Shown here: positions 7,524 through 23,551 of the stretch, piece by piece
Position numbering within the stretch: position 1 is the stretch's first letter
Layout: each line of letters opens with the position of its first letter
DNA from: a virus
Direction: 5' to 3' (one strand)
Virus record (IMG/VR): IMGVR_UViG_3300020048_000072
Coordinates: 28,534 to 92,533 of that record
DNA length: 64,000 nt
The notes under the pieces: model-generated
The model's database searches: none
Seen by the model: only the letters and a program-made list of their open reading frames with translations
Told to the model about the DNA's origin: nothing
Made by a program: the position numbers and the translations under genes

Positions 7524-8179
7524 AAAAATTAACACACTTTGTAAAACCATCTAATATTACTCCAACAAAATATAGATCTCAATTTATTAAGAATCATCAA
7601 GAAAAGATACTTCAGTCTGGTGATGTTTATTGTTTTGGGGTTTTTTCTGGATGGTCAATGGTAGATGAAGTAAACGGACTTTTATCAGTAGGAAAAAATA
7701 TTGGAAACGTTTGGGGTTTTGATAGTTTTTGTGGACTACCAAAAGAAGAAGCAGAATCATTATATTGTGAAGAATGGGGAGAGGGCGAATTTAGTTCTTG
7801 TGCTTATCTAGATACTGATGATCCCAATATAGCCGCACAAGCTATTAATAAGTTTGTGATAGATAAAACAGGTCATAAAAATATAGAAATGATAGTTGGG
7901 TTTTATAAAGATAGTTTATTTCCTTATAACAAATATAATCCAGCAATTTTAATTGATATTGATACAGATATTTATTCTTCTGCTTTAGAAGCTCTTAATT
8001 TCATGTTTTCACAAAAGCTAGTTGTTGAAGGCACAGCAATTATTTATGATGATTGGAAAGGAACTTCTTTAGGAGAGGGTAGAGCACATATTGAAATAGA
8101 AAAAGGTTATGGCGTTGAGTTTGAACATATTTGTGGAGACGGTGAAAGAATGTATATTGTAAGAGGAATTAATGTCTAA
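7520..8179 (+). CDS. TylF/MycF-type sugar O-methyltransferase
   Basis: FGVFSGWS, WGFDSFCGLP, IDTDIYSS, IIYDDW. Confidence 0.85.
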   Translation: MKKLTHFVKPSNITPTKYRSQFIKNHQEKILQSGDVYCFGVFSGWSMVDEVNGLLSVGKNIGNVWGFDSFCGLPKEEAESLYCEEWGEGEFSSCAYLDTDDPNIAAQAINKFVIDKTGHKNIEMIVGFYKDSLFPYNKYNPAILIDIDTDIYSSALEALNFMFSQKLVVEGTAIIYDDWKGTSLGEGRAHIEIEKGYGVEFEHICGDGERMYIVRGINV

Positions 8180-9741: not shown

Positions 9742-9742
9742 T

Positions 9743-10705
9743 ATGAAGGTTGTAGTTTTTGGTGGTGCTGGATTTATTGGTTGTACTCTTGTTGAAAAAC
9801 TATTAGATCAATTTTTTGAAGTTTATGTTATTGATAACTTTAGAAAAGGAATTGAGTCTGTTGCGTCTTTTATGCCTCGTAATAGACTAGATATTAGATA
9901 TGGTGATATTAGAAATATTCATCAAATCAAAAAACAAATTATAGAAATTGATCCTGATGTTATTGTTCTCGCGTCTGGTATTGTTGGTTTGGATGACTGC
10001 AATAACAATCCCGAAGAAACAAAAAGAGTTAATGTTGATGGCTGGCGTAATGTAGCAGATGCTTGTGTTGGTTATCCTATTATTGGGTTATCAACAGGAA
10101 GTGTTTATGGTAAACTAGAAGAGGTTTGTACAGAAGATTCTCCATGTAATCCGGTTTCTCTTTATGGAACAACAAAATTAGAAGGGGAAAAACCTATTTT
10201 GGATGTTGGCGGTGTGATTTATAGATATGCTACTGCTGGTGGAGTTTCAAGAAATATGAGAATGAATTTAATTCCAAACATGCTTACATACGATGCTATT
10301 AAAGATAAGAAACTAGATATTTATCAACCTGGTGCAAAAAGAACTTTTATTGATATCGAAGATTTTGCTAATTCTATTATTTTTGCTATAAATAACCATC
10401 CTTTTATGCGTGGTAAAATTTATAATGTTGGGGATAATGATAATAATTGGACTAAGAAACAAATAGCAGAATATATTCAAAAGAAAACAAGATGTGAGTT
10501 AACGTATAATAGTGATAAAGAAGATCCAGATCTTCGCGATTATGCCGTGGATTTTTCACGAATCAATAAATTAGGCTTTAAATGTAAAAAATCTGTAGAG
10601 AATATGGTAGACGATCTATACGAATATTTTATAGAACAAACATATTCTAAATATGAACTTGATCCAGAATATGTTGATATGTATTTTAGTAAGGAGAATA
10701 AATAA
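9743..10705 (+). CDS. NAD-dependent epimerase/dehydratase (extended SDR)
   Basis: GGAGFIG, STGSVYG, YGTTK; ATG at 9743 follows GGAG. Confidence 0.9.
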   Translation: MKVVVFGGAGFIGCTLVEKLLDQFFEVYVIDNFRKGIESVASFMPRNRLDIRYGDIRNIHQIKKQIIEIDPDVIVLASGIVGLDDCNNNPEETKRVNVDGWRNVADACVGYPIIGLSTGSVYGKLEEVCTEDSPCNPVSLYGTTKLEGEKPILDVGGVIYRYATAGGVSRNMRMNLIPNMLTYDAIKDKKLDIYQPGAKRTFIDIEDFANSIIFAINNHPFMRGKIYNVGDNDNNWTKKQIAEYIQKKTRCELTYNSDKEDPDLRDYAVDFSRINKLGFKCKKSVENMVDDLYEYFIEQTYSKYELDPEYVDMYFSKENK

Positions 10706-11643
10706 TGAAAGTATTGGTTAGTGGTTCTAAATCTATGGTGGGTAGAGCCACAATAGAAAAGCTAAAAGAGAAAAATTATGATGTTGTTGGGGCGTCTAGA
10801 GAAGATTGTGATTTTTTACAACTAGATCAAGTCAGGGGTTTATTTACTGCTCATAAGCCAGACGTATGTATATCTTTAGTAGGTACTAATGGAGGAATTT
10901 CATATAACAGAAATTATCCTTTTGATATTTATGCTCAAACAACTCTAACTGGTATTAATAGTATTTTAGCTTGTGTTGAAAACAATGTTAAAAAGATTCT
11001 ATATATTGTTCCTTCTTGCGCTTTAAATCCATCAGAAGACGTTTCTAATGAACAAGACTTATATTATGGTCGTCCGCATCAGTCTGTTGAATGTCATGGA
11101 TTAGCAAAAAGATCAGTAGTTGATTGTATTAATTTTGCTGTCCTTCAATACGGAAATACTGGTTTATGGGCGAATATTATTATTGGCCAAAATTCTTTCG
11201 GACCATTCGATAGATTTGATGATGAAAGAGGTAAGGTAGTTTCTGGATTAATTCGTAGAATTGTACAAGCTAAAATAAATAAAGAAGATAGTGTAGTTAT
11301 ATGGGGAACGGGTAAACCATTAAGAGAGTTTCTTTATTGTAAAGATTTTGCCGCTGGTATTATATCTACTCTAGAATCAGAGAATGTAAAAAGAGATATT
11401 ATCGTTACATCTGGTTATGAGATTTCAATTAAAGAATTAGCAGAGAAAATTAAGTTATTATCTGGATATGATGGAGAATTAGTATTTGATACTAGTAAAC
11501 AAGATGGTCAAATGAGGAAAAGACTGTCTATGGAAATAATGAAGAATTGTTTAGATTTTCCTATTACAGATTTTGATTTGGCTTTAAAAGAAACAATTGA
11601 TTGGTATATATCTACTTTGGGGAATGAATGTATAAAAGTATAG
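10705..11643 (+). CDS. GDP-L-fucose synthase-like SDR with altered catalytic residues
   Basis: GGISYN, SC, WGTGKPLREFLY, FDTSKQDGQMRK; YxxxK appears as HGLAK. Confidence 0.8.
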   Translation: MKVLVSGSKSMVGRATIEKLKEKNYDVVGASREDCDFLQLDQVRGLFTAHKPDVCISLVGTNGGISYNRNYPFDIYAQTTLTGINSILACVENNVKKILYIVPSCALNPSEDVSNEQDLYYGRPHQSVECHGLAKRSVVDCINFAVLQYGNTGLWANIIIGQNSFGPFDRFDDERGKVVSGLIRRIVQAKINKEDSVVIWGTGKPLREFLYCKDFAAGIISTLESENVKRDIIVTSGYEISIKELAEKIKLLSGYDGELVFDTSKQDGQMRKRLSMEIMKNCLDFPITDFDLALKETIDWYISTLGNECIKV

Positions 11644-12077
11644 GAATAATCTTAGACAATATTTATGCTAATCAACTTGCATATGAGTCTATAACATCAT
11701 TAAATAAATTAGCAGAAAAAACAAATACTAATATTGCGGCATTTGTAAAGAATATTTCACCTTCTTATATTCCTGCTAAATTTGGTATTTTTGGATTACA
11801 TTCTATCCACAATATATCTCGCGGAACAATAGTAGCTACGGATTTAGATTCGGCAGAAGTACTAATCAATTCTCAGACAACAGCAAATAAGATTTTCTAT
11901 GTTTGGGATTTAGAGTGGTTGCATAATCCACAAAAGAAAAACTTTTTACAAAACACAAATATATATAGGAACATAGAAATAGTAACACGAAGCAAATCTT
12001 ATTCTGATGCAATTAACAATTATTGCAATATTAGACCAAAGATTTTATCTATTGAGGAAGTATTAAATGTCATTTAA
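11628..12077 (+). CDS. Hypothetical protein (possible GT-B N-terminal half-domain)
   Basis: IVATDLDSA...KIFYVWDLEW; overlaps its neighbours in the operon. Confidence 0.55.
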   Translation: MYKSIGIILDNIYANQLAYESITSLNKLAEKTNTNIAAFVKNISPSYIPAKFGIFGLHSIHNISRGTIVATDLDSAEVLINSQTTANKIFYVWDLEWLHNPQKKNFLQNTNIYRNIEIVTRSKSYSDAINNYCNIRPKILSIEEVLNVI

Positions 12078-12837
12078 CGCAGAACAACAAAAGAGTATCA
12101 TCGTTTCTTATACTGAAGATAAAGATAGTTTAGAAATGATCGCAAAGAGATATAACACGTATGTTAACAAGATTAGGAGATTCTTAATTAAGAGTAATGT
12201 TCCTATTCGTAGCTTTGCAGAAAGTCAAAAAATAGCATTGGATGTTGGAAGAAATGAGCATCCGACCAAAGGTAGAAAAAGAACAAATGAAGAGAAGAAG
12301 AAAATATCTTCATCTGTATCTAAAGCCTGGGATGAATTTTCTGATGAAAAAAGGGAATCTATTAGGGAGGGTGCTGCTGTTAGGTGGCATCAAAGAACCG
12401 ACGAAGAAAAAGAGGAAATGTCTCTTGCTGCCAAAAAAGGTATGCAAAAGGCTGCCATGATTGGTTCAAAAATGGAACATTTTATTCAAACAGATCTTGA
12501 ATCCAGATCGATTCCGGTTATATTCCACAAGAGAGATTTGGTCAAAAACACGAATCTTGAAGTAGATATTTTTGTTCCGTCGTATAATACGGCTGTAGAA
12601 ATTGATGGTCCTACACACTTTCTTCCCATTTTTGGTGAAGACAGACTTGTTAAGACAATGGAATCTGACAGAGAAAAAATTGGACTTTTAATTAGTGCTG
12701 GATATAATATTCTAAGGCTAAAGTGTTTAAGCAAGAGCGTTAGTATGGCTAAGTCTAAAAAGATTACAGATTCTATCGTTGAATTTTTGGAAAGTATCGG
12801 TTCCGCTAGTGGTCAATATAAAGAAATTGAGGTTTAA
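12067..12837 (+). CDS. Putative homing endonuclease (HTH + NUMOD3-like + Vsr/DUF559-type nuclease)
   Basis: KGRKRTNEEKKKISSS (NUMOD3-like); EVDIFVP...AVEIDGPTHF...GYNILRL. Confidence 0.72.
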   Translation: MSFNAEQQKSIIVSYTEDKDSLEMIAKRYNTYVNKIRRFLIKSNVPIRSFAESQKIALDVGRNEHPTKGRKRTNEEKKKISSSVSKAWDEFSDEKRESIREGAAVRWHQRTDEEKEEMSLAAKKGMQKAAMIGSKMEHFIQTDLESRSIPVIFHKRDLVKNTNLEVDIFVPSYNTAVEIDGPTHFLPIFGEDRLVKTMESDREKIGLLISAGYNILRLKCLSKSVSMAKSKKITDSIVEFLESIGSASGQYKEIEV

Positions 12838-12838
12838 T

Positions 12839-13681
12839 ATGGAATTAGAGAAGTTATCGGTTGCAGAGATTAAAGAGAGATTATCTTCAGAATATGGTTA
12901 TTCACAAGAAGAGATTACGAGTATTGGTGGTAAGGTTGCTCTTAGAGAAGCTCTTGATTTAGAAATTAAGAAGCATCTTGCATTCGGTGATGAGGAAGCT
13001 GTTTCTGGTTATGCTGATGAATTAGAAGAGGTAGAAATGGATAGGTCATCGCCAGGATGGTCTGATTATGTTATTTCTCTATTTAGAGAAGATGAAATGA
13101 TGGTTAAAAATGATAATAAATATCCAACATTAAAGGGTCTTCGTAGAGTATTTTATAATATCTTTGGTCCACCATCTTTTAGTGGAGTTATAGATTATTC
13201 CTCTCCTAATACAGAATCAAGTCCAGGTCGTGCTCATGCTAATTATGAATTGGTGTTTTATGACTGTGGACGAGAAATGCGATATAGGGGGGCTGCCGAT
13301 GCGTATCCCGGCAATATTGCAGGAGGTTATCAAGTATACCCATTAGCAATTGCAGAGAACAGAGCGGAAGCTAGGGCCTATAGAAAGGCATTGATGTTAA
13401 ACATCGTAACTGCTGAAGAAATGGGGAATGAAGAATCGCACTTTGTTTCTGTTTTGAGTAGTACAGGAGAATTTAATGAAGCTGAACCAATGAATGATAA
13501 TCAAATGTTGGTTGTTAAAAACAAATCTAAAGAATTGAATATTGATCCTGACAAGTTTTTAGATTTTATGAAGAAAGAACTTGGTGTGCTTACACTAAGT
13601 AAAAAAGAGGGATTGGAGTGTGTTAAGAGAATTAGTATGTATAGTAATAACCCTAGTATTATTCCAGGAGAATTGAAATGA
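12839..13681 (+). CDS. Hypothetical protein, possible single-strand annealing protein
   Basis: ATG at 12839 after GAGG; LAIAENRAEARAYRKAL...VTAEEM resembles Rad52/RecT-type motifs. Confidence 0.45.
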   Translation: MELEKLSVAEIKERLSSEYGYSQEEITSIGGKVALREALDLEIKKHLAFGDEEAVSGYADELEEVEMDRSSPGWSDYVISLFREDEMMVKNDNKYPTLKGLRRVFYNIFGPPSFSGVIDYSSPNTESSPGRAHANYELVFYDCGREMRYRGAADAYPGNIAGGYQVYPLAIAENRAEARAYRKALMLNIVTAEEMGNEESHFVSVLSSTGEFNEAEPMNDNQMLVVKNKSKELNIDPDKFLDFMKKELGVLTLSKKEGLECVKRISMYSNNPSIIPGELK

Positions 13682-14064
13682 AGTTGACTTATACAACATC
13701 AGACGGTCGTTTAACAGTTGAGCTTGAAGGTAATTCAGACAAAGAATTATTTAGGAAGTTAGCTCACTTCCAAGAAGTTTTTGAAGATGTTGCTTCATCA
13801 AATGTTGGTGGTAAATTAGTAGAAGGTGGAGATATTACATATCGTGTACGAAGATCCAAATATACTGATGATAAAGGAAAAGAAAAGGAGGCTGAGTATT
13901 TTGAAAAGGTAGTTACTAGCGGTCCTTTAGCCTGGTATAAAAAGAGCTTTGGTGTATTGGATGATGGTAGCGACAATCTCTTTCCCAAGCGTCCAGATAA
14001 AGAAGATAAGAATCTAGAGATTGGTAACAATGGTTGGGCTAAATATAAGGTTGTTCCTAAGTAA
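13678..14064 (+). CDS. Hypothetical protein
   Basis: ATGA overlap, GGAG ribosome-binding site, phage-like composition. Confidence 0.75.
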   Translation: MKLTYTTSDGRLTVELEGNSDKELFRKLAHFQEVFEDVASSNVGGKLVEGGDITYRVRRSKYTDDKGKEKEAEYFEKVVTSGPLAWYKKSFGVLDDGSDNLFPKRPDKEDKNLEIGNNGWAKYKVVPK

Positions 14065-14159
14065 TTTTTGTTACTGAGGATGCTGTGTGGACAGATAATT
14101 GTAGATTCGACTTCTACCATCTTCATTTTGTTTTTTACCACCTATTATTTGGGATCAAT

Positions 14160-14354
14160 ATGGATAAGATAGAAATTTTAGAAATTATATATGATATTCT
14201 TCGTACAGTTGATGTACGAGATATCGGGTCAGAATATGGGGTATTTGAAACAATGGATCATAGAGATCTTTTACATTCTATTGCCGCAAAAATACAACAA
14301 CTTACAAGAGAACAAAATTGGATTGATGATAATCAACCGGATATGGAACAATGA
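14160..14354 (+). CDS. Small hypothetical protein (MDKIEIL...)
   Basis: ATG at 14160; stop overlaps the next start (ATGA). Confidence 0.55.
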   Translation: MDKIEILEIIYDILRTVDVRDIGSEYGVFETMDHRDLLHSIAAKIQQLTREQNWIDDNQPDMEQ

Positions 14355-14812
14355 AAATATACGGATTAAATGGATTCCTATATCCACTCCCTCTTCCTAA
14401 AACAAGAGTTGAGCCTGTATGGGAATTTAATTGGAACGATCAAAGAGCAGAAAAGTTTGCAAAGACAATAAAAGAGGATTGTATTTTAATTGGCTTTAGT
14501 GATGGGGCAACGGCAGCATTGACTGTTGCTCAATGTTCAAAATTTGTAAAAGCAGTTTATTGTCATTCTTGTATGTATTCGTCTTATAAATTAATAAGAT
14601 ATTTTGATGTTAATTTCTTTAGTACAATTGGAGATAAAACACCAACATATGAAGGAACAGAAAAAACATTTCACAAATATATATTAGGTGGTTATAATTG
14701 CAATATATTAGATTTGCAACCAGAACCAATTAAATCATTTAATCCTGTTCATATGATTATGAATAAGAAGAATCACCACTTTACAAACTGCATTAAATAT
14801 TTGCCAATATAA
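14351..14812 (+). CDS. Small alpha/beta hydrolase (esterase-like)
   Basis: LIGFSDGA nucleophile elbow (GxSxG), GDKT and C-terminal HHF. Confidence 0.7.
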   Translation: MKIYGLNGFLYPLPLPKTRVEPVWEFNWNDQRAEKFAKTIKEDCILIGFSDGATAALTVAQCSKFVKAVYCHSCMYSSYKLIRYFDVNFFSTIGDKTPTYEGTEKTFHKYILGGYNCNILDLQPEPIKSFNPVHMIMNKKNHHFTNCIKYLPI

Positions 14813-14814
14813 TT

Positions 14815-15075
14815 ATGGAAATACAAGATATATCAAGAATAGAAAATGGCGTTCAAATAATAATATGTTTAGTTGAAGGTCGTCACGAATATGGACCAAT
14901 CAAAAATAAAGAGTGGCCTAGATTCGATGCTCTTACAAAACAACTTAAAAGAATAGTTACAGATATTGATGATCTTACATTAGTTCATGTAGACTCCCAA
15001 GAGAGTCGTTTAAATGAAAGATGGCAACCACAAACAGTGTATCAATTGAGCCTAAGAAAAGTTAAAAATATCTAG
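14815..15075 (+). CDS. Hypothetical protein
   Basis: Last + strand ORF before the strands converge. Confidence 0.6.
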   Translation: MEIQDISRIENGVQIIICLVEGRHEYGPIKNKEWPRFDALTKQLKRIVTDIDDLTLVHVDSQESRLNERWQPQTVYQLSLRKVKNI

Positions 15076-15217
15076 AGCCACCACCATACTTTTCTCTTCC
15101 ATGTAAATAGTTATGGAGTCTTTTTCTATCTTTTTTAGAAAGAGAATCTATTATTTCTTGCGGTACTCTATGTTCTCTTAAATGTCCTTCTATTGTATTA
15201 GGATGACCCCATGGCAT
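15062..15217 (-). CDS. His-rich 51-aa ORF, not in the ORF track; either a separate gene or a -1 frameshift extension of the upstream lipoprotein
   Basis: MPWGHPNTIEGHLREHRVPQEIIDSLSKKDRKRLHNYLHGREKYGGGSRYF*; the frame stays open upstream to an A9G run at 15268-15277. Confidence 0.55.
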   Translation of the reverse strand: MPWGHPNTIEGHLREHRVPQEIIDSLSKKDRKRLHNYLHGREKYGGGSRYF

Positions 15218-15246
15218 ATTAGCCCAGTCACTATTCAATATGCTGT

Positions 15247-15831
15247 CTAATCCATATTCGGGGCTGTCTTTTTTTTTACATCATTGAAGTATTTGTTGAA
15301 CTGAGAGACGCTCATAAATCCACTATGTATAACTTCTACTCCGGAGATATACATCTTAAAATTAGGAATTGGATTTTGAGAATCTATTAGGTATGTTATT
15401 TTCCATCCTTTGGATTTTAATTTTGGCTCAACCTCTAACTTCCACTTTTCGCACCAATAACAGCCAGAATTTGTATACATAATTATTTCATTTCTTACTG
15501 ATTGTCCTAATTCTTTCTTTTCTTCTTTTTGTGGTGCTGAATCTTCTGCAACAATAGCAGATAAATCTTTCTCATCAATGCGACCATCCCCATCACATTT
15601 TTCGCATTTAAATGTTACAATAGTATCTCCAACAACACCAGTACCACCGCAATCGGGGCACTGATCGCCAATCTGAGGGCCTTTTGGCACAACAAGGCTA
15701 GATGATAGGGTATTGTATTTGGCGACGAGAGACGACGATCTAGCTATGTCTAATGGCATCGCAGCCCACTGGTCTGCTGGCTGACCTGAACAACCAGCCA
15801 TAAGCAGACAAAAAATTAACAGATATCTCAT
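15247..15831 (-). CDS. Lipoprotein with DnaJ-type Zn-finger pair and thioredoxin/glutaredoxin domain
   Basis: MRYLLIFCLLMAGC lipobox; CPDCGGTG and CEKCDGDG; MYTNSGCYWC...IPNF. Confidence 0.72.
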   Translation of the reverse strand: MRYLLIFCLLMAGCSGQPADQWAAMPLDIARSSSLVAKYNTLSSSLVVPKGPQIGDQCPDCGGTGVVGDTIVTFKCEKCDGDGRIDEKDLSAIVAEDSAPQKEEKKELGQSVRNEIIMYTNSGCYWCEKWKLEVEPKLKSKGWKITYLIDSQNPIPNFKMYISGVEVIHSGFMSVSQFNKYFNDVKKKTAPNMD

Positions 15832-15863
15832 TTTTGATTCCTTTCTAATTATATGTTTCATTT

Positions 15864-16994
15864 TTATCCCCAAAGATTAAGATTCCATGTGGGTATTCTT
15901 TGCATTTCCCACCCAGCTAATCCCGCGTATACATAACAGTCTCTTGATTTAATATCGCTCCAGCGAGCAAAGAACGAACCTTTTGGAATCATAATATTTC
16001 CTGTTTGCGGATTTACTATATCTAAGGATATCCATAATGCTTTCTTATCTGCCGGAACAAATTTCGCACTATCAAAAATATCCCGAGGTCCACCATTCCA
16101 ACCTGGTCCCCAACTATTAAGAACAAGAACTAATGGGCTACCATACATTTTAATAATTTCTGGTCTATCGTCCGCACCACAATATTGCATAGCATGTGCC
16201 CATCTTCCGCTTCTATTAGAGAATCCATTCTTATCTCTGGTTTTTGAAAATCCCTCTCCACCACAAGAAGAAATAAATCTTCCCTGTCCTAAATTATCTC
16301 TAATAGCTTCAAAACTAGACGCTTGTGCTGCTGTACGAATTAGATTATTTCTTAGTTCTTTTGCAATATTTTCTGGTGGTGCCGATCTTCCATATTTACC
16401 CGCTAACGAACCAGAATATTTAGTTAGATCTATTCCTATTTCTGGATAATTTTTTCTAACAACAGCACCAGCTTTTTTAATTGCAACGTTTGCTGCCGCT
16501 CCACAATACCAACCATCCCCACCACTACCTCTAAACCAATAAGATACTTCAGTAGATAATCCACCACTTAATATTCCTGCTTGTGGAATCTCTGGAATAG
16601 TTTCTAACTTACCAGTTATCTCATCTACTTGTCCAGCAACAACTTCTCCAACCATTGTTCCTAGTATGGCGTTTTTGTTTGAGTGTGACACGCAGTCTCC
16701 TCTCTGCTGGGCACTACCAGGCCAAACATTAGGAAGTAATTCCATAACATGAACAAAAGGAATAACTAATTGGCCAGCAAAAGATCCATACCAACCATAA
16801 TGTTGAGCAGCGTCGTCCGCATTAGAATAACCACCAGTCTCAACAGCTATTTGCTTGAATCTATCTCTTTCATCTGGATCAAGATAAATACCAGAAAATC
16901 CTTCTTCATATTTCTTAATAACGTCTTGTATAGTATTTAGGTTAGCAGAAACTTCCTGTGCCCAAACCTTAGTTCCCTTTGCATAAATCTTCAT
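15864..16994 (-). CDS. Papain-like (C1/clan CA) cysteine peptidase
   Basis: QQRGDCVSH (oxyanion Gln and catalytic Cys), WAHAM (His), VLNSWG (Asn). Confidence 0.82.
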   Translation of the reverse strand: MKIYAKGTKVWAQEVSANLNTIQDVIKKYEEGFSGIYLDPDERDRFKQIAVETGGYSNADDAAQHYGWYGSFAGQLVIPFVHVMELLPNVWPGSAQQRGDCVSHSNKNAILGTMVGEVVAGQVDEITGKLETIPEIPQAGILSGGLSTEVSYWFRGSGGDGWYCGAAANVAIKKAGAVVRKNYPEIGIDLTKYSGSLAGKYGRSAPPENIAKELRNNLIRTAAQASSFEAIRDNLGQGRFISSCGGEGFSKTRDKNGFSNRSGRWAHAMQYCGADDRPEIIKMYGSPLVLVLNSWGPGWNGGPRDIFDSAKFVPADKKALWISLDIVNPQTGNIMIPKGSFFARWSDIKSRDCYVYAGLAGWEMQRIPTWNLNLWG

Positions 16995-17003
16995 TTTATT
17001 TCC

Positions 17004-17489
17004 TTACTGAGTAAAGGCCCAACCTATAGCATAGGAAAGTTGACTAACTTCTTTTATCTTTTCTGGAGTCATAGGTGTTGGATATTCGCCAATAACATCG
17101 TGAAATAATTTATCTACTTCAACACCAAAACCAGGAAATAATCCGGTTAGTTCTGGATACTGAATTCCAAAAATAGAGAGAAGTTCTTTATTGTATTCCG
17201 GCAATTTATCAGAATTAATATTCACTTTGGCTTTTGACCAAACATCGCCATTACCCAACCATAAAGCAGCGGCATATTTCTTTTGTTCTTCTGTGGCCTT
17301 ACTGTTTTGTATAATAGTCACAAGATTAGACATCTTAGCTTTCATTGCTTCTGGTATTTCTCTTTCAACAGAAACAACTGCTGGTACATTCTTACCTCTT
17401 AAAAAACTAAGATCAATGGTCTTTATCTTGTCTTCAAATATAAAATAAGATGCCACAACAATAATAAGAATGGGCATTTTATTATTCAT
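17004..17489 (-). CDS. Membrane-anchored hypothetical protein
   Basis: N-terminal hydrophobic stretch MPILIIVVASYFIF. Confidence 0.65.
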   Translation of the reverse strand: MNNKMPILIIVVASYFIFEDKIKTIDLSFLRGKNVPAVVSVEREIPEAMKAKMSNLVTIIQNSKATEEQKKYAAALWLGNGDVWSKAKVNINSDKLPEYNKELLSIFGIQYPELTGLFPGFGVEVDKLFHDVIGEYPTPMTPEKIKEVSQLSYAIGWAFTQ

Positions 17490-17784
17490 TATCTTTCACC
17501 TCATCTACTACTACCATAGATTTTTCGCTTTTTTCTTGATAGTGAACAAGATCATCTATTACAACAGTAATGTTTTTATAAACACTATCGCTAGTCTCAA
17601 ATTTAGATCTAATATCCCATAATCTTTGTAATATTTCTAATTTAGATTCTCTATCTATTGAGCTTGTTTTTGATGTTGATGGAATAAGATTTTTAATTTT
17701 ACTTAAAGCAGGAAGCTTATCTTTAAACATCATATATAAAGCATAAAGTGCAGCAACAACTGCAATTATCATTTTTGGGTCCAT
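17482..17784 (-). CDS. Membrane-anchored hypothetical protein
   Basis: N-terminal transmembrane segment IIAVVAALYALYMMF. Confidence 0.65.
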   Translation of the reverse strand: MDPKMIIAVVAALYALYMMFKDKLPALSKIKNLIPSTSKTSSIDRESKLEILQRLWDIRSKFETSDSVYKNITVVIDDLVHYQEKSEKSMVVVDEVKDNE

Positions 17785-18143
17785 TATTTCATTCCTAATA
17801 TTCTTTTTGCGGCAGACTTAACTGAGTTTAAAATTGATTTCTTTACTAATTGTCTTACAACTATATCTGGTCCAGGAAGATCTATAAAAGGTAGAACTAC
17901 ATCTAATACTTTTTCTACCAACACAACAACCTTGTTTACAACAAGAGTATCCCAACCCTCTTCTAATGTTTCTTCTGTGGCTTTATCAATAATGTCGACT
18001 ATTTTTTCTGGATCATCGTCTTTACTTAATCTAGCCCTAAGTCTTTTAAATAGATTTAATTTGAAAAGAGCTTGTTCAGAAGAATTAACAGATGAAGATG
18101 AGTACGAATAATTTTCTACTTCTGACCACGAAATATCAAGCAT
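17784..18143 (-). CDS. Hypothetical protein
   Basis: Overlaps its neighbours; IDLPGPD motif. Confidence 0.65.
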   Translation of the reverse strand: MLDISWSEVENYSYSSSSVNSSEQALFKLNLFKRLRARLSKDDDPEKIVDIIDKATEETLEEGWDTLVVNKVVVLVEKVLDVVLPFIDLPGPDIVVRQLVKKSILNSVKSAAKRILGMK

Positions 18144-18486
18144 TATATTCCTCTACTAATTTTGGGTTTTCTACTATTGTATCATAAATTGCGTTAGATA
18201 GTTTAATAGCAGAAATATTTTCAACACCCCTTTCTTTCATTTGCTTTCTAACAATAAAGTATGTATTGATTCTTGCTATAGCTTTTCTATTCTTCCACCA
18301 ATTAATTACTATTGGGGCGACCTGAATAACAAAAGAAATAATAGCGAGAACTAATACAATATCAAAACCATAATCTTCAACAGTTTCTTTATTATAAATT
18401 TTTCCTATTTTTTCCTTATCAAGCCCGGTCATCTTTTCAATGACCAAAATATCTAATTCTTTCATGATCGTTTTCTTAAAATCCAA
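18136..18486 (-). CDS. Single-pass membrane hypothetical protein
   Basis: Central segment IVLVLAIISFVIQVAPIVINWW. Confidence 0.65.
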   Translation of the reverse strand: MDFKKTIMKELDILVIEKMTGLDKEKIGKIYNKETVEDYGFDIVLVLAIISFVIQVAPIVINWWKNRKAIARINTYFIVRKQMKERGVENISAIKLSNAIYDTIVENPKLVEEYNA

Positions 18487-18782
18487 TCAATCAAACCAAC
18501 TTTATCTTCTTCAATTGTTGGATCTTCTTTTGTATTAACCACCAGTTTTTCAACATTTTCTGGTTCTACAACACTAGTATCTTTAAAATATCTTCGTAGA
18601 AAGTCAATAACAAATGTCAAACCCAAAACAATAAAGGTAGTTGCTGGTCCTTCTATATCTCTAATTTCTGGAATAACTTGTCCTGCCAATGCATTTATTG
18701 CTCCAACACCAGCACCAATAATAACAATTACTCCCCATCTTTTAATATCAGTTTTATCTATACTGTTTGATTTACTTGGCAT
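18462..18782 (-). CDS. Holin-like two-transmembrane protein
   Basis: Two hydrophobic helices and a charged C terminus; first gene of the membrane module. Confidence 0.5.
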   Translation of the reverse strand: MPSKSNSIDKTDIKRWGVIVIIGAGVGAINALAGQVIPEIRDIEGPATTFIVLGLTFVIDFLRRYFKDTSVVEPENVEKLVVNTKEDPTIEEDKVGLIDWILRKRS

Positions 18783-18793
18783 TTTATTTTCCT

Positions 18794-21700
18794 TTAATTA
18801 GTATAACTCTTTGAACAAGTGAACTTACCTCTGAATAATGTTATGATACTTCCATTATTTAATGTGGCTTGAACATCATAATCATAGGTTCCTTGTGGAA
18901 TATTTGTATCAGATGATGTTAGTTGTAATGATATTTGTTGCATACCAGTAGCAGATATAACTACACATTCCTTATTTATTGAAGTTCCATAGATACCTAT
19001 TATTACTGTAGCATCTGTTAAATCCATCCATTGATCGGTAACATCTCCTGTAAATAGTATATTCCTATTATCGACAGTAAGATAATCGTCGCCTTGTATA
19101 ACACTTAATGTTGTACCATCTGAATTAAGTGGTGAAATTATATTTATTGTGGATGAACTTAATTTACTATTCATTAGGTCTACGGCGGTAGCAAATTCAT
19201 CAATTCCCGTTAGGATATTTTGAGTGTCATCAATAACCGTATCTATCTTGGTATCTAACGTAGACAAACCGGATACATCCGCTTTGAAAGCATTAGCGCG
19301 AGTTCCGTCAGTAAAGTAAGCATAATTGGCTGCTGCGGAAGCACCGCCGGTCAACGCGTTTGAGTCAACTTGATTTGCTACGGTAAACACAAACTGATCG
19401 GTCTTGGTTTTAATCGCAGCAATATCGCTGTTGGCAGGTGCGGTGTAACTCGCCGCGAGCATCGCATTGTTGGTGCCCCGCATGTCCGTGTTCACAGTCG
19501 TGGTATCGACCAGGGAGACGCGACTGACGTGCCCTGAAGCGTTGATCCCTAGCGAGGCGAAATTACTGGGGAACGCCTGGGAGAGCGAATAGCCGGATTT
19601 GTCGTTGTTGGTCCCGACAGTTACTGGCGAGGTAACGCTGGCCACACTGCCGACTACATTGCCAAGCACACTGCCGACACTACCGCTGACGTTACCGCCG
19701 ACATTGCCGGTGACGTTACCTACAGCCCCGGTGACTGAGCCGACACTACCGGTCAGGTTGCCTGTAATGTTTGCGGTTTGATTTCCCAAACCCGTTGTCG
19801 GCGTTAAGGAATAACCTGTCTTATCGACAATGACTTGATCGGTTGTTGCATCAAACGTAGACAAACCGGATACATCAGCTTTGAAAGCATTAGCGCGAGT
19901 CCCATCGGTGAAATAAGTATAGATGGTTGCCGCATAATCTCCGCCAGTCCATGCCGCATCCCCGCGATCCCGAATCGCCTCTTGCGAGTCCGTGACGTTG
20001 TTGTAATTGTTTGCAGCGGTTGTTACGTTAACTTCGGCAAGCGTGGGAGCATCCGAAGTTTTACCCATGATAACTGCGAGCCAATTACGAATAAGCGTAA
20101 TCCCCGCGAACTTTGAAGAAAGCGTTTGAATATCCGCATTCGTGTCCGCAATCCCCGCCCCATACGATCCAGCCCGCGACTTATCCAAATCGCCCGCCAA
20201 CGCATTCCGCAGCACCTTGACCGAATAGTCCCGCCCATTCGGCGGAATCACGCACCACGGCATATCCAGCGTAATCACCTTTGTTGCCGGATCGAATCCG
20301 ACAATGAATCGCGTTTGTCGATCAACGTCGCCTTCCTCGCCAATCGTGATCGCCTGACCGAAACAAACGCTTGTCGCACCTGCATCTAGCGTTGCAGTTT
20401 GCGTTGTAGCCGTCACGATCTGGCCCTCGAACAGCACGTCGGCCATTTGGATGTCGCGGACGAATCGAGCCAGCGAACCGTTGGGAACCGTGCCGGTGAT
20501 GATGCCGCGAACGATTTCATCAGGGGTGTAATACGGCGGGACTATTACTTGGTCGGTTGCCGAGTCAAACGTAGACAAACCGGATACATCCGCTTTGAAA
20601 TCATCAGGACCGCTAACTCCAACACCATTAACTTCAGCGACATTTACACTAATTCGCTCCATGATAAGCCAAGTGTACAGATTATCCCCTATTTGTCCAA
20701 CCTCCATAGAAGTTGCCAGTCCTGTAGTATTGACGACTTGATCTGGTTGCAATGCGACACTATCAATAGTTGGATCAAAAGTAGACAAGCCAGATACATC
20801 GGCTTTCAGGTCGTTGGGTCCAGCTACTGTGGTTCCACCAACCTTCGTCACGTTGACCGCTTGATCCGCTGCAAGCCCATATCCTGTCTTGTCGTCGTTA
20901 GTTCCAACCGTGACTTTGCCACTGCTTATCGTCAAAACTGAGCCGATTCGCGAGAGTAGCGTCGTCACTCCAGAACTATCAGCAACCGTTGTTAATGTCC
21001 GAACCGCAACACTCCATACCGCATCGAATGCACCAGCAGCGAATTTGGCAGAAGTAAATGCCCCTGCGGCAATTGATGTGGCGGTAATAACACCAGCGTT
21101 GATAAAGCCAACAGTGACGGCAGATGTAACACTGTTTACACTTCCAGCGACGTTACCCAAAACGCTACCGACGCTGCCTGTTACATTGCCTCCAACGTTA
21201 CCCGTTACTGACCCTACGGCACCTGTTACTGACCCTACGGCACCCGTGACGCTTCCGACGGAACCAGAAAGATTGCCGGTGATGTTTGCGGTTTGATTTC
21301 CCAAACCCGTTATTGCTGTTAGGGAATAACCTGTCTTATCAATAAGTTCCAGAGAATCTGCTGTCCATTGATAAACGGAGCCATCAAGTACCAGCATGGT
21401 ATCAAGTTTATTCGTTACCGCTTCGACATTAGGCAATTGATTTAATTGAGTTACGATATTGGTAATTTGGTCGTTAATTCCTGTAAGCGAGCTATCAAAA
21501 GTCGAAACGTCAGCCTTAAAGTCATCTGGGCCGTCAACGACAGTTCCATTAACATTATTTAATGAAACCGTTCCAGCTATTTCTGAAGCTGTAGTAACAA
21601 CGTTAATTGATACGGGGATACATGAAGTCTTAGTGGCAATCACCACGAAACTTGTATAGTTTGTTTCTGCTTGCGTTGGCGTATAGATGACGATGCCGTT

Positions 21701-21856
21701 CGTCGAATACGCAACCGTACCGGCTCCGTTAGCTTCCGACACGCCGATAGGCTTGACACGAACTGTGACACCAGAAGTTTGTACGGTTCCGTCTGCGATT
21801 AGAAGCACAGCCCCTATTGCGATTGGCTCGGGAGATTCGGCGTTTCGTGGATACAT
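18794..21856 (-). CDS. Fibre/appendage-like virion protein with repeats and a C-terminal BppU-like domain
   Basis: G(N/S)V(T/G)GSVGSV repeats, five KADVS linkers; C-terminal IQGDDY...GTYDYDVQAT...TLFRGKF. Confidence 0.62.
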   Translation of the reverse strand: MYPRNAESPEPIAIGAVLLIADGTVQTSGVTVRVKPIGVSEANGAGTVAYSTNGIVIYTPTQAETNYTSFVVIATKTSCIPVSINVVTTASEIAGTVSLNNVNGTVVDGPDDFKADVSTFDSSLTGINDQITNIVTQLNQLPNVEAVTNKLDTMLVLDGSVYQWTADSLELIDKTGYSLTAITGLGNQTANITGNLSGSVGSVTGAVGSVTGAVGSVTGNVGGNVTGSVGSVLGNVAGSVNSVTSAVTVGFINAGVITATSIAAGAFTSAKFAAGAFDAVWSVAVRTLTTVADSSGVTTLLSRIGSVLTISSGKVTVGTNDDKTGYGLAADQAVNVTKVGGTTVAGPNDLKADVSGLSTFDPTIDSVALQPDQVVNTTGLATSMEVGQIGDNLYTWLIMERISVNVAEVNGVGVSGPDDFKADVSGLSTFDSATDQVIVPPYYTPDEIVRGIITGTVPNGSLARFVRDIQMADVLFEGQIVTATTQTATLDAGATSVCFGQAITIGEEGDVDRQTRFIVGFDPATKVITLDMPWCVIPPNGRDYSVKVLRNALAGDLDKSRAGSYGAGIADTNADIQTLSSKFAGITLIRNWLAVIMGKTSDAPTLAEVNVTTAANNYNNVTDSQEAIRDRGDAAWTGGDYAATIYTYFTDGTRANAFKADVSGLSTFDATTDQVIVDKTGYSLTPTTGLGNQTANITGNLTGSVGSVTGAVGNVTGNVGGNVSGSVGSVLGNVVGSVASVTSPVTVGTNNDKSGYSLSQAFPSNFASLGINASGHVSRVSLVDTTTVNTDMRGTNNAMLAASYTAPANSDIAAIKTKTDQFVFTVANQVDSNALTGGASAAANYAYFTDGTRANAFKADVSGLSTLDTKIDTVIDDTQNILTGIDEFATAVDLMNSKLSSSTINIISPLNSDGTTLSVIQGDDYLTVDNRNILFTGDVTDQWMDLTDATVIIGIYGTSINKECVVISATGMQQISLQLTSSDTNIPQGTYDYDVQATLNNGSIITLFRGKFTCSKSYTN

Positions 21857-21872
21857 TATTAAATTTCTCCGT

Positions 21873-22895
21873 TTAAAGTATTTGTGTTTGTGGTCGCAGC
21901 CAATAAGGTTTGAATGGTGCCGATGGAGAGCTAAAGGCTACTCCGTTCCCGTCGCCTGTAGGAAGCGTTGCGGGGTTGGCGTACTTGGTCCCAAAGCCGG
22001 ACGACCACGGGTAAACTGAGATTCTTGGTGATGCGTCATGGCCAACTGCGATGTCCTCGCCGCTTGGAGAAAATTCCACGGCGCGACCAACGCCGGTCGG
22101 GAAGGTGCCGGGGTTAGCATACTTAGTTCCAAAGCCGGACGACCACGGGTAAACCGAGATTCTTGGCGATGAGTCATGGGCAACTGCAATGTCATTGCCG
22201 CTTGGAGAAAATCCTACGGCGCGAGCCGACCCAACTGGCAGGACGCTGGGGCTGGCGTATCTAGTTCCAAAGCCGGACGACCACGGATAAACCGAGATTC
22301 TTGGCGTTGAGGTTTGACCGACTGCAATATCCGCTCCACTTGGAGAAAACCGGGTCGCAGAACCGTCAATCCCAGGAAGCACGCCTGGGTTGGCGTATTT
22401 AGTTCCAAAGCCAGACGACCAAGGGTAGACTGAAATGCATGGCGACGAGTCATGGCCAACTGCGATGTCATTGCCGCTTGGACTAAACGAGACACTCCAC
22501 ACAAATGATGGCGGAACCGTGCCTGGGTTGGCGTATTTAGTTCCAAAGCCAGACGACCACGGGTATGCCGAGATTCTTGGTGCTACCCCGTGACCGACTG
22601 CAATATCCGCTCCACTTGGGGAGAACGCAACCGCGTATCCGTTACCAGTCGGCGGCGTGCCTGGGTTAGCGTATTTAGTTCCAAAGCCAGACGACCAAGG
22701 GTAGACTGAAATGTATGGCGACGAGCCATGCGCGGCTGCAATATCCGCTCCACTTGGGGAGAACGCGACCGCGTATCCAGTAGAAGCCGGTAGGGTGCTG
22801 GGATTGGCTAATTTGGTTCCGAAGCCGCTGCCGGATGTCCACGGGTAGACCGACACGAAAGGAGACGACTCATGGGCTACTGCGATGTGGCTCAT
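21873..22895 (-). CDS. Beta-propeller (WD40-like) repeat protein, probable virion component
   Basis: About seven near-identical 43-aa repeats, VAFSPSGxDIAVxHxxSPRISVYPWSSGFGTKYANP. Confidence 0.8.
   Translation of the reverse strand: MSHIAVAHESSPFVSVYPWTSGSGFGTKLANPSTLPASTGYAVAFSPSGADIAAAHGSSPYISVYPWSSGFGTKYANPGTPPTGNGYAVAFSPSGADIAVGHGVAPRISAYPWSSGFGTKYANPGTVPPSFVWSVSFSPSGNDIAVGHDSSPCISVYPWSSGFGTKYANPGVLPGIDGSATRFSPSGADIAVGQTSTPRISVYPWSSGFGTRYASPSVLPVGSARAVGFSPSGNDIAVAHDSSPRISVYPWSSGFGTKYANPGTFPTGVGRAVEFSPSGEDIAVGHDASPRISVYPWSSGFGTKYANPATLPTGDGNGVAFSSPSAPFKPYWLRPQTQIL
21930..22880 (-). repeat. 129-bp tandem coding repeat (propeller blades)
   Basis: ttccaaagcc(g/a)gacgacca recurs about every 129 nt. 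Confidence 0.85.
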
Positions 22896-23551
22896 TATCC
22901 ACTCATCTTAGATACTTCGTATCGCGTTTGAGCGTCCAGAATATACGTTGCTGCCTCCGCATTTACCATCGCAGCTAGCTCTGTTTGTAACTGGTCCAAT
23001 GCGGCCTTAGCAATCGACATTTCTCCGCGTTCTGCGCGGACACTTACTTTGGCCCGACGACAAAGTTGATTCTGGCAGATTTCCGCAACCTCTTCTTCTG
23101 TAAGATCCGAATTTCCGTAGACGGAGTTTCGATCAGCGTTGAGGTACGGTTTCAGTTTATCGGGCAACGGGCGAGATGGTTGCTTTGCCGCAAGAATACC
23201 TTCAAACCTTTTTGCGTTGTCTTCGTACTGCGAAACTTCTTCTTGCCGTATGACAATCTGATCCGCTACAGCCATTGCCTTAGTACGAGCGGAGTCGATA
23301 TCCGCACGACGAAGTAACACTTGGCGTTCTTCCGACGTAATGATATTCGCACCTACAAGATCAACAATAACTGCTTTAACCGCTTCAAACTCAATCGGAC
23401 GATTGCGTTTAATGTTTAGAAGACGATTCCCTTTGCGGGCCGCCTTCTTTACCCCGGCAGTCCCATTAGCCATGGCCGTGTCAATCTTTTCGTGAACATC
23501 ATACAACAATGCCCAATCTTCAATTTCTTCGGGACGGAAATCGCGCTTCAT
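22895..23551 (-). CDS. Hypothetical helical protein (in GC-rich island)
   Basis: Stop/start overlap with the propeller gene; AGGA ribosome-binding site. Confidence 0.7.
   Translation of the reverse strand: MKRDFRPEEIEDWALLYDVHEKIDTAMANGTAGVKKAARKGNRLLNIKRNRPIEFEAVKAVIVDLVGANIITSEERQVLLRRADIDSARTKAMAVADQIVIRQEEVSQYEDNAKRFEGILAAKQPSRPLPDKLKPYLNADRNSVYGNSDLTEEEVAEICQNQLCRRAKVSVRAERGEMSIAKAALDQLQTELAAMVNAEAATYILDAQTRYEVSKMSG

What the first reader, a model, noticed from the sequence alone, without database searches (positions are those of the whole stretch)
15062..18782. Unusual candidate lysis module: membrane proteins, papain-like peptidase and thioredoxin lipoprotein, with no recognisable endolysin
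Seen: the late region ends with a two-TM holin-like gene, four small proteins (three with TM segments), a cysteine peptidase with complete Q/C/H/N motifs, and a lipoprotein with CxxCxGxG fingers plus a CYWC thioredoxin domain. No amidase, muramidase or M15/M23 motif was recognised in the window. Known: lysis cassettes often sit at this position, and papain-type enzymes need a reduced catalytic Cys. Inference: a thiol-reducing plus proteolytic envelope-opening system, suited to a host with a disulfide-rich protein envelope. A Planctomycetota/PVC-type host is a guess.
Basis: partly seen in the sequence, partly recalled or inferred. Interest (0 to 1): 0.72.

Follow-up and report, generated by a model that had tools for sequence, protein, structure and literature searches.

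The report
Phage papain-like protease lysis module
An uncultured phage ends its late operon with small membrane proteins, a papain-type cysteine protease and an exported thioredoxin-fused protein; the core genes recur in hundreds of phages with no recognisable cell-wall enzyme, so this is probably an undescribed way of opening the host envelope.

Summary
Window 15062-18782 (minus strand) encodes a 2-TM holin-like protein, three small proteins with one TM and one without, a 376-aa peptidase, and a lipoprotein with two CxxCxGxG knuckles plus a CYWC domain.

- **Peptidase.** It has no Pfam or PHROG hit. Its AlphaFold model (pLDDT 92) matches xylellain, procathepsins and papain (Z 16-20). Q96, C101, H267 and N293 are invariant, and the first ~70 residues align with zymogen pro-regions.
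- **Thioredoxin fold.** Confirmed for the C-terminal domain of the lipoprotein.
- **Conserved core.** An N-terminal-TM helical protein, the signal-less peptidase and an exported Cys-knuckle protein recur together in most of 83 related loci. These include prophages in Planctomycetota chromosomes, where the core sits just upstream of the terminase gene.
- **No usual endolysin.** Ten canonical endolysin Pfam families are missing from eight relatives that are at least 90% complete (an eleventh, GH108, from the four checked). One is a syntenic 137-kb relative of this phage.

Best reading (about 0.55): a lysis module whose enzyme is a zymogen-like C1 protease released through membrane lesions, with a periplasmic thiol-disulfide partner.

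Caveats: the contig is about 61% complete, the thioredoxin fusion is clade-specific, the 'holin' pair lies elsewhere in the relative, and the substrate and this phage's host are unknown. New variant of a known kind; worth bench tests.

The parts
18462..18782 (-). g106, 106 aa: two TM segments plus a highly charged C-terminal tail; holin-like (class II topology)
   Evidence: Only a weak PHROG hit of unknown function. Homologue in relative G003 at 122751-123065, away from the peptidase core.
18136..18486 (-). g116, 116 aa: single central TM; candidate holin partner or antiholin
   Evidence: Weak Holin_SPP1 and cluster-10 similarity limited to the TM region. G003 homologue lies next to the g106 homologue.
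17784..18143 (-). g119, 119 aa: small soluble or amphipathic protein, function unknown
   Evidence: Partial homologue at the same relative position in L006/G003.
17482..17784 (-). g100, 100 aa: N-terminal TM anchor. Positional analogue of the ~95-100-aa N-TM proteins (clusters 18 and 58) upstream of the core in other lineages
   Evidence: No sequence homology detected.
17004..17489 (-). g161, 161 aa: N-terminal TM plus a ~110-aa helical periplasmic domain with a (F/Y)PG(F/L) motif; conserved partner family upstream of the peptidase
   Evidence: blastp to L003 and L006. hhalign to cluster 6 (prob 96.9%) and cluster 59 (92.9%). Alignment A5. No PDB or Atlas relative.
15864..16994 (-). 376-aa papain-fold (C1-like) cysteine peptidase. 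No signal peptide; N-terminal ~70 aa resemble a pro-region; catalytic Q96, C101, H267, N293
   Evidence: In relatives an intein sits exactly at C101.
15247..15873 (-). Lipoprotein (probable start 15831): signal plus lipobox LMAGC, short helix, two CxxCxGxG knuckles, linker, C-terminal thioredoxin-fold domain with CYWC and an invariant cis-Pro candidate
   Evidence: Family member directly downstream of the peptidase in 48 of 83 loci; 54 loci carry a cluster-1 member within the fetched stretch.
15062..15238 (-). g58, 58-aa ORF at the convergent junction; not conserved in any related locus, possibly not a gene

Best explanation
This is the lysis (envelope-opening) region of an uncultured, large, low-GC tailed phage. 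Its conserved core has three genes:
1. A membrane-anchored periplasmic helical protein (g161).
2. A cytoplasmically made papain-family (C1-fold) cysteine endopeptidase with a zymogen-like N-terminal segment and no export signal.
3. An exported Cys-knuckle protein, here a lipoprotein fused to a thioredoxin domain.

Proposed mechanism (inferred, not shown):
- The protease accumulates late in the cytoplasm as a self-inhibited pro-form.
- It reaches the envelope only when small membrane proteins (g106, g116, g100) permeabilise the inner membrane.
- In the periplasm it is activated or positioned by the two exported partners. The Cys-knuckle/thioredoxin partner handles the thiol-disulfide state of the enzyme or of its targets.
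- It then cuts a peptide component that holds the envelope together: peptidoglycan stem peptides or cross-links, or wall and outer-membrane tether proteins. It thereby takes the place of, or adds to, a classical endolysin.
For: Enzyme:
- AF2 model with pLDDT 92.4.
- VIA-align Z 20.1 to xylellain and Z 16-19 to procathepsins and papain. Mature papain aligns to residues 72-359, while pro-forms align from about residue 20. Foldseek agrees.
- Q96, C101, H267 and N293 are invariant in 47 sequences.
- Inteins are inserted exactly at C101 in many members.
- 82 of 83 homologues have no TM or signal segment.

Context:
- The block follows the tail-fibre gene directly, at the end of the late arm.
- In 83 related loci a Cys-knuckle exported protein lies at position +1 in 48, and 54 loci carry a family member within the fetched stretch. 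An N-terminal-TM protein (cluster 6/59/97 or 15) lies at position -1 in 59.
- Small 1-2-TM proteins recur just upstream in independent lineages.
- In the jumbo-type lineage and in L003, a PG_binding_1 + matrixin-like peptidase sits in the same block.
- In the Planctomycetota prophage or phage loci L084 and L087 the pair lies just upstream of TerL, and in L086 about 8 kb upstream. This is the classical lysis-cassette position.

Absence of alternatives:
- Ten canonical endolysin Pfams are absent in six-frame searches of eight relatives at least 90% complete; an eleventh, GH108, is absent from the four of them checked. These include G003 (137 kb, 92% complete), which shares 56 of 112 ORFs with this phage in synteny.
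- Four of the eight also lack the M10 peptidase.

Precedent by architecture: BFVD lists phage C1-fold proteins that UniProt names 'Peptidoglycan binding-like' and 'N acetylmuramidase'.

Redox partner: the thioredoxin fold is confirmed and the knuckles resemble the DnaJ zinc finger.
Against: - No activity, substrate or timing data exist.
- C1-family enzymes characterised so far cut proteins, not peptidoglycan.
- This contig is only about 61% complete, and unknown endolysin folds cannot be excluded anywhere.
- In G003 the g106/g116 homologues lie in the structural arm, far from the core. In L003 the core is embedded among baseplate and fibre genes. In jumbo relatives it sits next to an RNA polymerase gene. 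Synteny is therefore not uniformly 'lysis-like'.
- 45-60% identity across unrelated phage lineages, together with many inteins, is unusual for lysis enzymes.
- The thioredoxin domain is missing from most family members, and only about 11 of 39 distinct Cys-knuckle proteins have a lipobox.
Confidence: 0.55

Rival explanations
1. Classical four-function cassette in disguise. g100 or g106 is the holin, g161 is an i-spanin (N-terminal TM plus helical periplasmic domain), the lipoprotein is an o-spanin whose Cys knuckles and thioredoxin domain make the intermolecular disulfides that spanins need, and the peptidase is simply the endolysin (a peptidoglycan endopeptidase). This is a sub-variant of the main reading with different roles for the partners.
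For: - Topologies fit: an N-TM protein of ~160 aa, and a lipoprotein with a Pro-containing linker and several Cys.
- The gene set is holin-like, N-TM protein, enzyme, lipoprotein.
- From established knowledge of lambda Rz/Rz1, spanin function depends on disulfide-linked homodimers.
Against: - Most Cys-knuckle family members have an ordinary signal peptide and no lipobox Cys, so they cannot be outer-membrane lipoproteins.
- The two 'spanin' genes are separated by the enzyme gene, unlike known embedded, overlapped or adjacent spanin pairs.
- A coiled-coil character for g161 was not tested.
- Some cluster-6 members carry an Ig/PKD-like insert.
Confidence: 0.15
2. Accessory third-step factor. A true but unrecognised muralytic endolysin exists elsewhere, either in the missing ~39% of the genome or as a novel fold. 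This protease core only removes a non-peptidoglycan layer (outer-membrane tethers, S-layer or wall proteins), by analogy with LysB or spanins.
For: - The contig is incomplete.
- In many relatives a PG_binding_1 + M10 peptidase in the same block could be the real endolysin.
- The nearest structural relatives include the S-layer-processing protease Cwp84 (Z 16.7).
- Known C1 enzymes cut proteins.
Against: - G002, G003, G004 and G016 (92-100% complete) have neither the M10 enzyme nor any of 11 canonical endolysin families.
- The 1-60 kb part of G003 that this contig lacks encodes nucleotide and NAD metabolism genes among its 25 strongest Pfam hits.
Confidence: 0.17
3. Not lysis: an envelope-modifying or superinfection-exclusion module (receptor masking or destruction, as with T5 Llp next to its receptor-binding gene), or a cytoplasmic protease that processes phage or host proteins.
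For: - The core is adjacent to tail-fibre or baseplate genes in the window, L003 and L084.
- A lipoprotein and membrane proteins are typical of exclusion systems.
- High conservation and intein load resemble core-function genes.
- The peptidase has no export signal.
Against: - A signal-less enzyme cannot reach a surface receptor before lysis.
- Its conserved partners are exported or membrane proteins, which a cytoplasmic processing enzyme would not need.
- The head-maturation region lies ~35 kb away near portal and capsid.
- The position just upstream of terminase in prophages, and the co-located PG-binding peptidase, point to lysis.
Confidence: 0.13

Closest known systems
Papain family (MEROPS C1, clan CA), especially bacterial xylellain (PDB 3OIS) and procathepsins B, K, L and X
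   Same: Same two-domain fold (Z 16-20, rmsd 2.6-3.7 A over 195-249 residues). Gln/Cys/His/Asn residues lie in the family's motif contexts (QxRGDC..., H267, LNSWG). The N-terminal extension aligns with zymogen pro-regions.
   Different: No PF00112 hit for this protein at E<0.1. Only 9-17% identity to solved structures. The family is phage-borne, has no signal peptide, has no Cys in the pro-region, and is always accompanied by a membrane partner and an exported partner. Its substrate is unknown.
Papain-superfamily endolysin domains (CHAP, NlpC/P60, Amidase_5, LysA N-terminal peptidases, PeiW/PeiP)
   Same: These are cysteine hydrolases of the same clan used by phages to cut wall peptides (PMC10318531, section on NlpC/P60 and CHAP). 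The genomic position here is similar.
   Different: Those are small minimal-fold domains, usually fused to wall-binding domains. This is a full C1A-type enzyme with a pro-segment and no binding domain. CHAP and NlpC/P60 HMMs do not match anywhere in the contig.
Holin-endolysin-spanin cassettes of phages of Gram-negative bacteria (lambda S-R-Rz/Rz1)
   Same: Small TM proteins, a signal-less enzyme, an N-terminal-TM periplasmic protein and a lipoprotein, all at the end of the late genes or just before terminase.
   Different: The enzyme class differs. The enzyme gene lies between the two envelope proteins. The 'lipoprotein' family mostly lacks a lipobox. Cys knuckles and a thioredoxin fusion are unknown in spanins.
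Thiol-regulated lysis enzymes (P1 Lyz SAR endolysin, activated by disulfide isomerisation) and DnaJ-type zinc-finger proteins with disulfide-isomerase activity (plant LQY1, CYO1); both recalled from my own knowledge
   Same: Cysteine chemistry in an oxidising compartment is coupled to the activity of a lytic enzyme or to client folding. The CxxCxGxG x2 motif matches DnaJ zinc fingers weakly.
   Different: Here the redox module is a separate exported protein. No caging disulfide is evident in the peptidase pro-region. Zinc binding and redox activity were not tested.

Membership tests
Peptidase family C1 (papain-like, clan CA) | Papain two-domain fold | tested here: met
   AF2 pLDDT 92.4. VIA-align Z 20.1 to 3ois_A and Z 16.2 to papain 1ppn over residues 72-359. 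Foldseek E 1e-7 to 1e-4.
Peptidase family C1 (papain-like, clan CA) | Catalytic Cys-His pair with oxyanion Gln and orienting Asn, conserved | tested here: met
   Q96, C101, H267 and N293 are invariant in 47 homologues, and the order and motif contexts match the family.
Peptidase family C1 (papain-like, clan CA) | Match to the Pfam model PF00112 above its gathering score | tested here: not met
   No PF00112 hit at E<0.1 for this protein. Only 12-14% of members of two related Atlas clusters carry PF00112. It is therefore a divergent branch, recognisable by fold rather than by the current HMM.
Peptidase family C1 (papain-like, clan CA) | N-terminal inhibitory pro-peptide (zymogen) | tested here: inconclusive
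   Pro-forms align from model residue ~20-24 and mature enzymes from ~47-72. Whether the segment occupies the active-site cleft, and whether it is cleaved, was not testable.
Phage endolysin | Recognised peptidoglycan-hydrolase domain or demonstrated muralytic activity | tested here: not met
   No hit to any PG-hydrolase family. Activity is not testable with these tools. It may work like an endolysin but cannot be filed as one.
Holin (g106) | Small protein with at least one TM, a charged C-terminus, lysis-gene neighbourhood and lethal membrane permeabilisation | tested here: inconclusive
   Two TM segments and a charged tail are present. There is no holin-family hit. The G003 homologue lies away from the peptidase core. 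Function is not testable here.
Two-component spanin (g161 plus lipoprotein) | i-spanin: N-terminal TM plus coiled-coil periplasmic domain. o-spanin: outer-membrane lipoprotein. Genes adjacent, overlapping or embedded. | tested here: inconclusive
   The N-terminal TM and the lipobox are present in the window. However, most family members lack a lipobox, the genes are separated by the peptidase gene, and coiled-coil character was not tested.
Thioredoxin superfamily (C-terminal domain of the lipoprotein) | Thioredoxin fold with CxxC at the N-terminus of helix 1 and a cis-Pro loop | tested here: met
   Residues 112-190 have pLDDT 82-92. Order of elements: strand 115-120, CYWC at 127-130 at the start of helix 125-133, invariant P156 before strand 157-162. 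Foldseek hits TrxP 3hxs, SoxS 3d4t and E. coli thioredoxin. Pfam thioredoxin models do not reach E<0.1.
DnaJ-type zinc finger (CxxCxGxG repeats) | Two CxxCxGxG motifs forming one zinc centre | tested here: inconclusive
   Both motifs are present and the four Cys are invariant. The profile hits DnaJ zinc-finger chains only at E 0.014-0.023 and Pfam at E 0.042, below cut-off. Metal binding is not testable; in the periplasm the Cys may form disulfides instead.

The most novel reading that the evidence does not exclude
In this widespread phage family the self-inhibited papain-type protease is the only lytic enzyme. Host release would then be achieved by proteolysis rather than by a muralytic endolysin. 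The enzyme would be switched on in the periplasm by a phage-encoded membrane adaptor and a dedicated exported thiol-disulfide partner. That would be a lysis pathway with a new enzyme class and a new activation logic, used by phages of Planctomycetota and other Gram-negative hosts.
Probability: 0.25. Interest if true: 0.85.

Novelty: new variant of a known kind. Interest (0 to 1): 0.66.

Why it matters
Phage lysis of Gram-negative cells is thought to need a holin, a muralytic endolysin and a spanin or equivalent.

- **Scale.** This phage-specific, unannotated enzyme family is large: 187 clusters at 50% identity with E<=1e-30 and 762 with E<=1e-10.
- **Genomic setting.** It sits where lysis genes sit, and it occurs in complete genomes of 47-205 kb that lack every common endolysin family.
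- **If it is the lytic enzyme.** It would add a full papain-type protease to the known lysis enzymes and give annotation pipelines a name for a frequent 'hypothetical protein'. It would also offer a first handle on how phages leave Planctomycetota, whose envelope biology is still debated.
- **Testable idea.** The paired exported Cys-knuckle/thioredoxin protein suggests redox control of lysis.
- **Intein hot-spot.** The inteins inserted at the catalytic cysteine are of interest in their own right.

Tried and rejected
- **Direct family searches.** Pfam and PHROG scans of the eight proteins gave nothing meaningful.
- **Sequence searches.** PDB sequence searches for the peptidase found nothing. 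For g161 they also found nothing, and the ESM Atlas had no hit or model for it.
- **Cultured phages.** tblastn against 50,697 cultured-phage records found no peptidase homologue. Portal and capsid gave only remote hits, so no cultured relative or host is available.
- **Inhibitor idea.** I tested whether the g161 helical domain resembles the peptidase pro-segment (an inhibitor-like relation) or the lipoprotein. hhalign gave probability below 1%.
- **Domain fusions.** Long family members contain inteins only, one or two each.
- **Regulatory and RNA signals.** The promoter/terminator scan of 14300-19200 was no better than shuffles. No tRNA genes occur in the contig.
- **Planctomycetota sample.** In 400 sampled Planctomycetota genomes only the centre genome had a strong match, and five had distant C1 peptidases. 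The gene is prophage-borne and rare there.
- **Apparent M23 hits.** The Peptidase_M23 matches in jumbo relatives are sub-cut-off hits, partly inside the ~1,460-1,490-aa RNA polymerase ORFs. I do not count them as endolysins.
- **Weak controls.** The GH19 and GH108 searches rang in no control genome, so those two negatives are weak.
- **Truncated tables.** Whole-arm Pfam scans list only the 25 strongest of 55 families.
- **Earlier notes.** The one earlier scan note returned was unrelated.

Full report
**Setting.** The window is the right 64 kb of a single 92,533-bp linear IMG/VR virus record with an estimated completeness of 61%. The plus-strand arm (window 1-15075) carries a DnaE-type polymerase, DnaB, ribonucleotide reductase, PhoH, RecA, dUTPase and a sugar-modification cluster. 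The minus-strand arm runs from terminase (57072-60311), portal and capsid, through giant structural ORFs and repeat-rich fibre genes, to the finding at 18782-15062. That block ends at the convergent junction. No cultured phage is close.

**The observation.** All eight ORFs are present as described.
- g106 has two TM segments and a charged tail.
- g116 has one central TM.
- g100 and g161 have N-terminal TM anchors.
- g119 has no convincing TM.
- None of the eight has a meaningful Pfam or PHROG hit.

**The peptidase.**
- A word-indexed search found 294 homologues of mostly 45-60% identity, none with a name or a Pfam domain apart from inteins.
- An exhaustive profile search found 187 clusters at E<=1e-30 and 762 at E<=1e-10.
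- In 47 aligned sequences Q96, C101, H267 and N293 are invariant.
- The AlphaFold model is very confident (pLDDT 92.4, pTM 0.92).
- Foldseek and VIA-align put it firmly in the papain family: xylellain Z 20.1 (rmsd 2.9 A over 233 residues), procathepsins B, X, K and L and pro-papain Z 17-19, and mature papain Z 16.2.
- Mature enzymes align from about residue 47-72 and zymogens from about residue 20. The first ~70 residues therefore look like a pro-segment. This is an inference from alignment ranges, since I could not inspect the coordinates.
- The Atlas search agrees: the nearest clusters are viral, and 12-14% of members of two of them carry PF00112.
- In the relative L006 an intein sits exactly before the catalytic cysteine (RGD|C...N|CVSHS). 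Many family members are split at that profile position, some with two inteins.
- 82 of 83 homologues have no TM or signal segment.

**The lipoprotein.**
- The protein has a signal peptide with lipobox LMAGC, two CxxCxGxG knuckles and, after a linker, a CYWC motif.
- With 16 homologues the C-terminal domain folds confidently (pLDDT 82-92) as strand, CxxC-helix, strand, invariant Pro, two strands, helix.
- It matches periplasmic and cytoplasmic thioredoxins: TrxP, SoxS and E. coli Trx.
- The knuckles match DnaJ zinc fingers only weakly.

**Conservation of the neighbourhood.** I fetched 80 viral and 9 genomic loci encoding relatives of the peptidase and clustered all neighbouring ORFs.
- A member of the Cys-knuckle family lies directly downstream of the peptidase in 48 of 83 loci, and 54 loci carry a family member within the fetched stretch.
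- A protein with an N-terminal TM lies directly upstream in 59.
- g161 belongs to one of these upstream families (hhalign probability 96.9% to cluster 6 and 92.9% to cluster 59). The family consists of a TM anchor, a variable Pro-rich or Ig-like spacer and a ~110-aa helical domain.
- The conserved unit is therefore: TM-anchored helical protein, then signal-less C1 peptidase, then exported Cys-knuckle protein.
- The thioredoxin domain is added only in the window, its relatives L003 and L006, and the Planctomycetota loci L084-L087.
- Only about 11 of 39 distinct Cys-knuckle proteins have a lipobox. The rest have ordinary signal peptides.

**What the relatives say about function.**
- In a 40-locus lineage of 100-205-kb phages with a fused multisubunit RNA polymerase gene, the block reads: 1-2-TM protein, an unassigned ~340-aa protein (cluster 5), 2-TM protein, 1-TM protein, PG_binding_1 + matrixin-like peptidase, three N-terminal-TM proteins, C1 peptidase, Cys-knuckle protein.
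- The closest relative by peptidase, L003, has the same PG-binding M10 peptidase two genes upstream of its g161 homologue.
- In the 7.8-Mb Pirellulaceae chromosome (L084) the core lies in a prophage between an Mtd-type fibre gene and terminase, portal and capsid.
- L085, L086 and L087 also carry phage hallmark genes within 10 kb. In L087 terminase follows the pair almost directly.
- These are the positions where lysis cassettes sit.

**Is there an ordinary endolysin?**
- Six-frame searches of the whole contig found nothing over cut-off with Phage_lysozyme, Amidase_2, SLT, M23, CHAP, NlpC/P60, M15_4, Amidase_3, M10, PG_binding_1, GH19, VanY and GH108.
- Because the contig is incomplete, I repeated ten canonical families on up to 16 related records, eight of them at least 90% complete. 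None has a match over cut-off, and GH108 is also absent from the four of them checked.
- The M10 enzyme is present in the jumbo lineage and L003, but absent from G002 (64 kb, terminal repeats), G003, G004 and G016.
- G003 (137 kb, 92% complete, 32% GC) is a true relative of this phage. It shares 56 of 112 ORFs, largely in the same order. The 25 strongest Pfam hits in the ~44 kb that this contig lacks are nucleotide and NAD metabolism, repair and similar genes.
- Limits: unknown endolysin folds are not excluded, two controls were silent (GH19, GH108), and the whole-arm tables are truncated.

**A complication.** In G003 the homologues of g106 and g116 lie together at 122.4-123.1 kb in the structural arm. 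The core (g119-like, N-TM protein, g161-like, intein-bearing peptidase, small TM protein, Cys-knuckle/thioredoxin protein) forms a separate small operon at 11.9-15.9 kb. The eight genes of the finding are thus two sub-modules that happen to be joined here. Separated holin and enzyme genes are common in large phages, but this lowers the weight of mere adjacency.

**Host.**
- Six of the nine genome hits are Planctomycetota MAGs, two of them in Mb-scale contigs.
- The three others (binned as Aquaspirillum, Rubrivivax and Flavobacteriaceae) are phage-sized contigs whose binning may be wrong.
- In a quick maximum-likelihood tree the window's peptidase and L003 fall in an eight-member clade (SH-aLRT 98) with L085, L086 and L087.
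- The gene is nevertheless rare in the phylum: only the centre genome had a strong match among 401 sampled.
- The window's ~33% GC is far from the 54-60% of those loci.
- A PVC-type host is therefore plausible for the clade but unproven for this phage. The family as a whole is not restricted to such hosts.

**Interpretation.**
- Shown: a divergent, phage-specific papain-fold peptidase family with an intact catalytic set; a thioredoxin-fold, exported partner; a conserved three-gene core; lysis-like positions; and absence of the common endolysin families in near-complete relatives.
- Inferred: the enzyme is made as a self-inhibited pro-form and reaches the periplasm through holin lesions. It is activated or positioned by its two exported partners and cuts a peptide component of the envelope.
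- Substrate: I cannot decide between peptidoglycan peptides and envelope proteins.
- Clues towards peptidoglycan: UniProt's names for some phage C1-fold proteins in BFVD ('Peptidoglycan binding-like', 'N acetylmuramidase') suggest that this fold is used in wall-targeting architectures.
- Clues towards protein substrates: the Cwp84 similarity and the co-occurring matrixin-like enzyme point that way.
- Rival readings, listed with their tests: spanin-like partners, an accessory third-step role, or a non-lysis envelope or cytoplasmic function.

**Verdict.** It is best called a new variant of a phage lysis cassette built on an unannotated C1-type protease family. Function is unproven.

Noticed in passing
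window 57072-60311 (-): The large terminase ORF is 1079 aa. Terminase matches lie at residues ~63-202 and 651-1039, with helicase- and HNH-endonuclease-like PHROG matches in between. The G003 homologue is 654 aa and lacks the insert. This probably reflects an intein or homing-endonuclease insertion in TerL.
   Followed up: partly
peptidase family (L006:6645-8834; P0131, P0183, P0207 and others): The peptidase family is an intein hot-spot. Many representatives are split exactly at the catalytic Cys (profile position 97/98) and others at ~145 and ~268-306. Some carry two inteins with LAGLIDADG domains.
   Followed up: partly
window 18794-23551 and 47461-51141 (-): The fibre-like genes have 47-49% GC inside a 30-35% GC genome. 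They contain repeated 'FKADVSGLSTFD' and 'GSVGSVTGAVG'-type motifs, which suggests a mosaic or recently acquired receptor-binding module.
   Followed up: no
window 34075-41658 and 28399-32589 (-): Giant ORFs of 2527 and 1396 aa lie in the structural arm. The 1396-aa ORF has no PHROG hit, and the 2527-aa ORF was not scanned against PHROGs or Pfam. The 2527-aa protein has a 42%-identical segment in G003.
   Followed up: no
L076:11509-15936 and L076:5-985 (jumbo-type relatives, contigs up to 205 kb): These relatives encode a single ~1475-aa protein combining RNA polymerase Rpb2 (beta) and Rpb1 (beta') domains. They also encode a Volactin-family actin-like protein close to the peptidase block.
   Followed up: partly
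L076:5935-6756; L003:6207-7118: A PG_binding_1 domain is fused to a matrixin-like (Peptidase_M10) domain with no signal peptide, in the same block as the C1 peptidase. This would be an unusual endolysin candidate in its own right.
   Followed up: partly
window ~2000-12000 (+): A cluster of three NAD-dependent epimerase/dehydratase genes, several glycosyltransferases and a TylF-type methyltransferase lies in the early/middle arm. It may serve sugar modification of DNA, the virion or the host surface.
   Followed up: no
G003 (L106-L109, 1-60 kb): The near-complete relative carries IMPDH/GMP reductase, ThyX, NAPRTase/NAMPT, Thg1-like, RNA ligase, Macro and Band_7 genes in the region that is missing from this contig.
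   Followed up: no
genome contig positions 2221-2230 (L001): A run of 10 N in the assembly upstream of the window.
   Followed up: no
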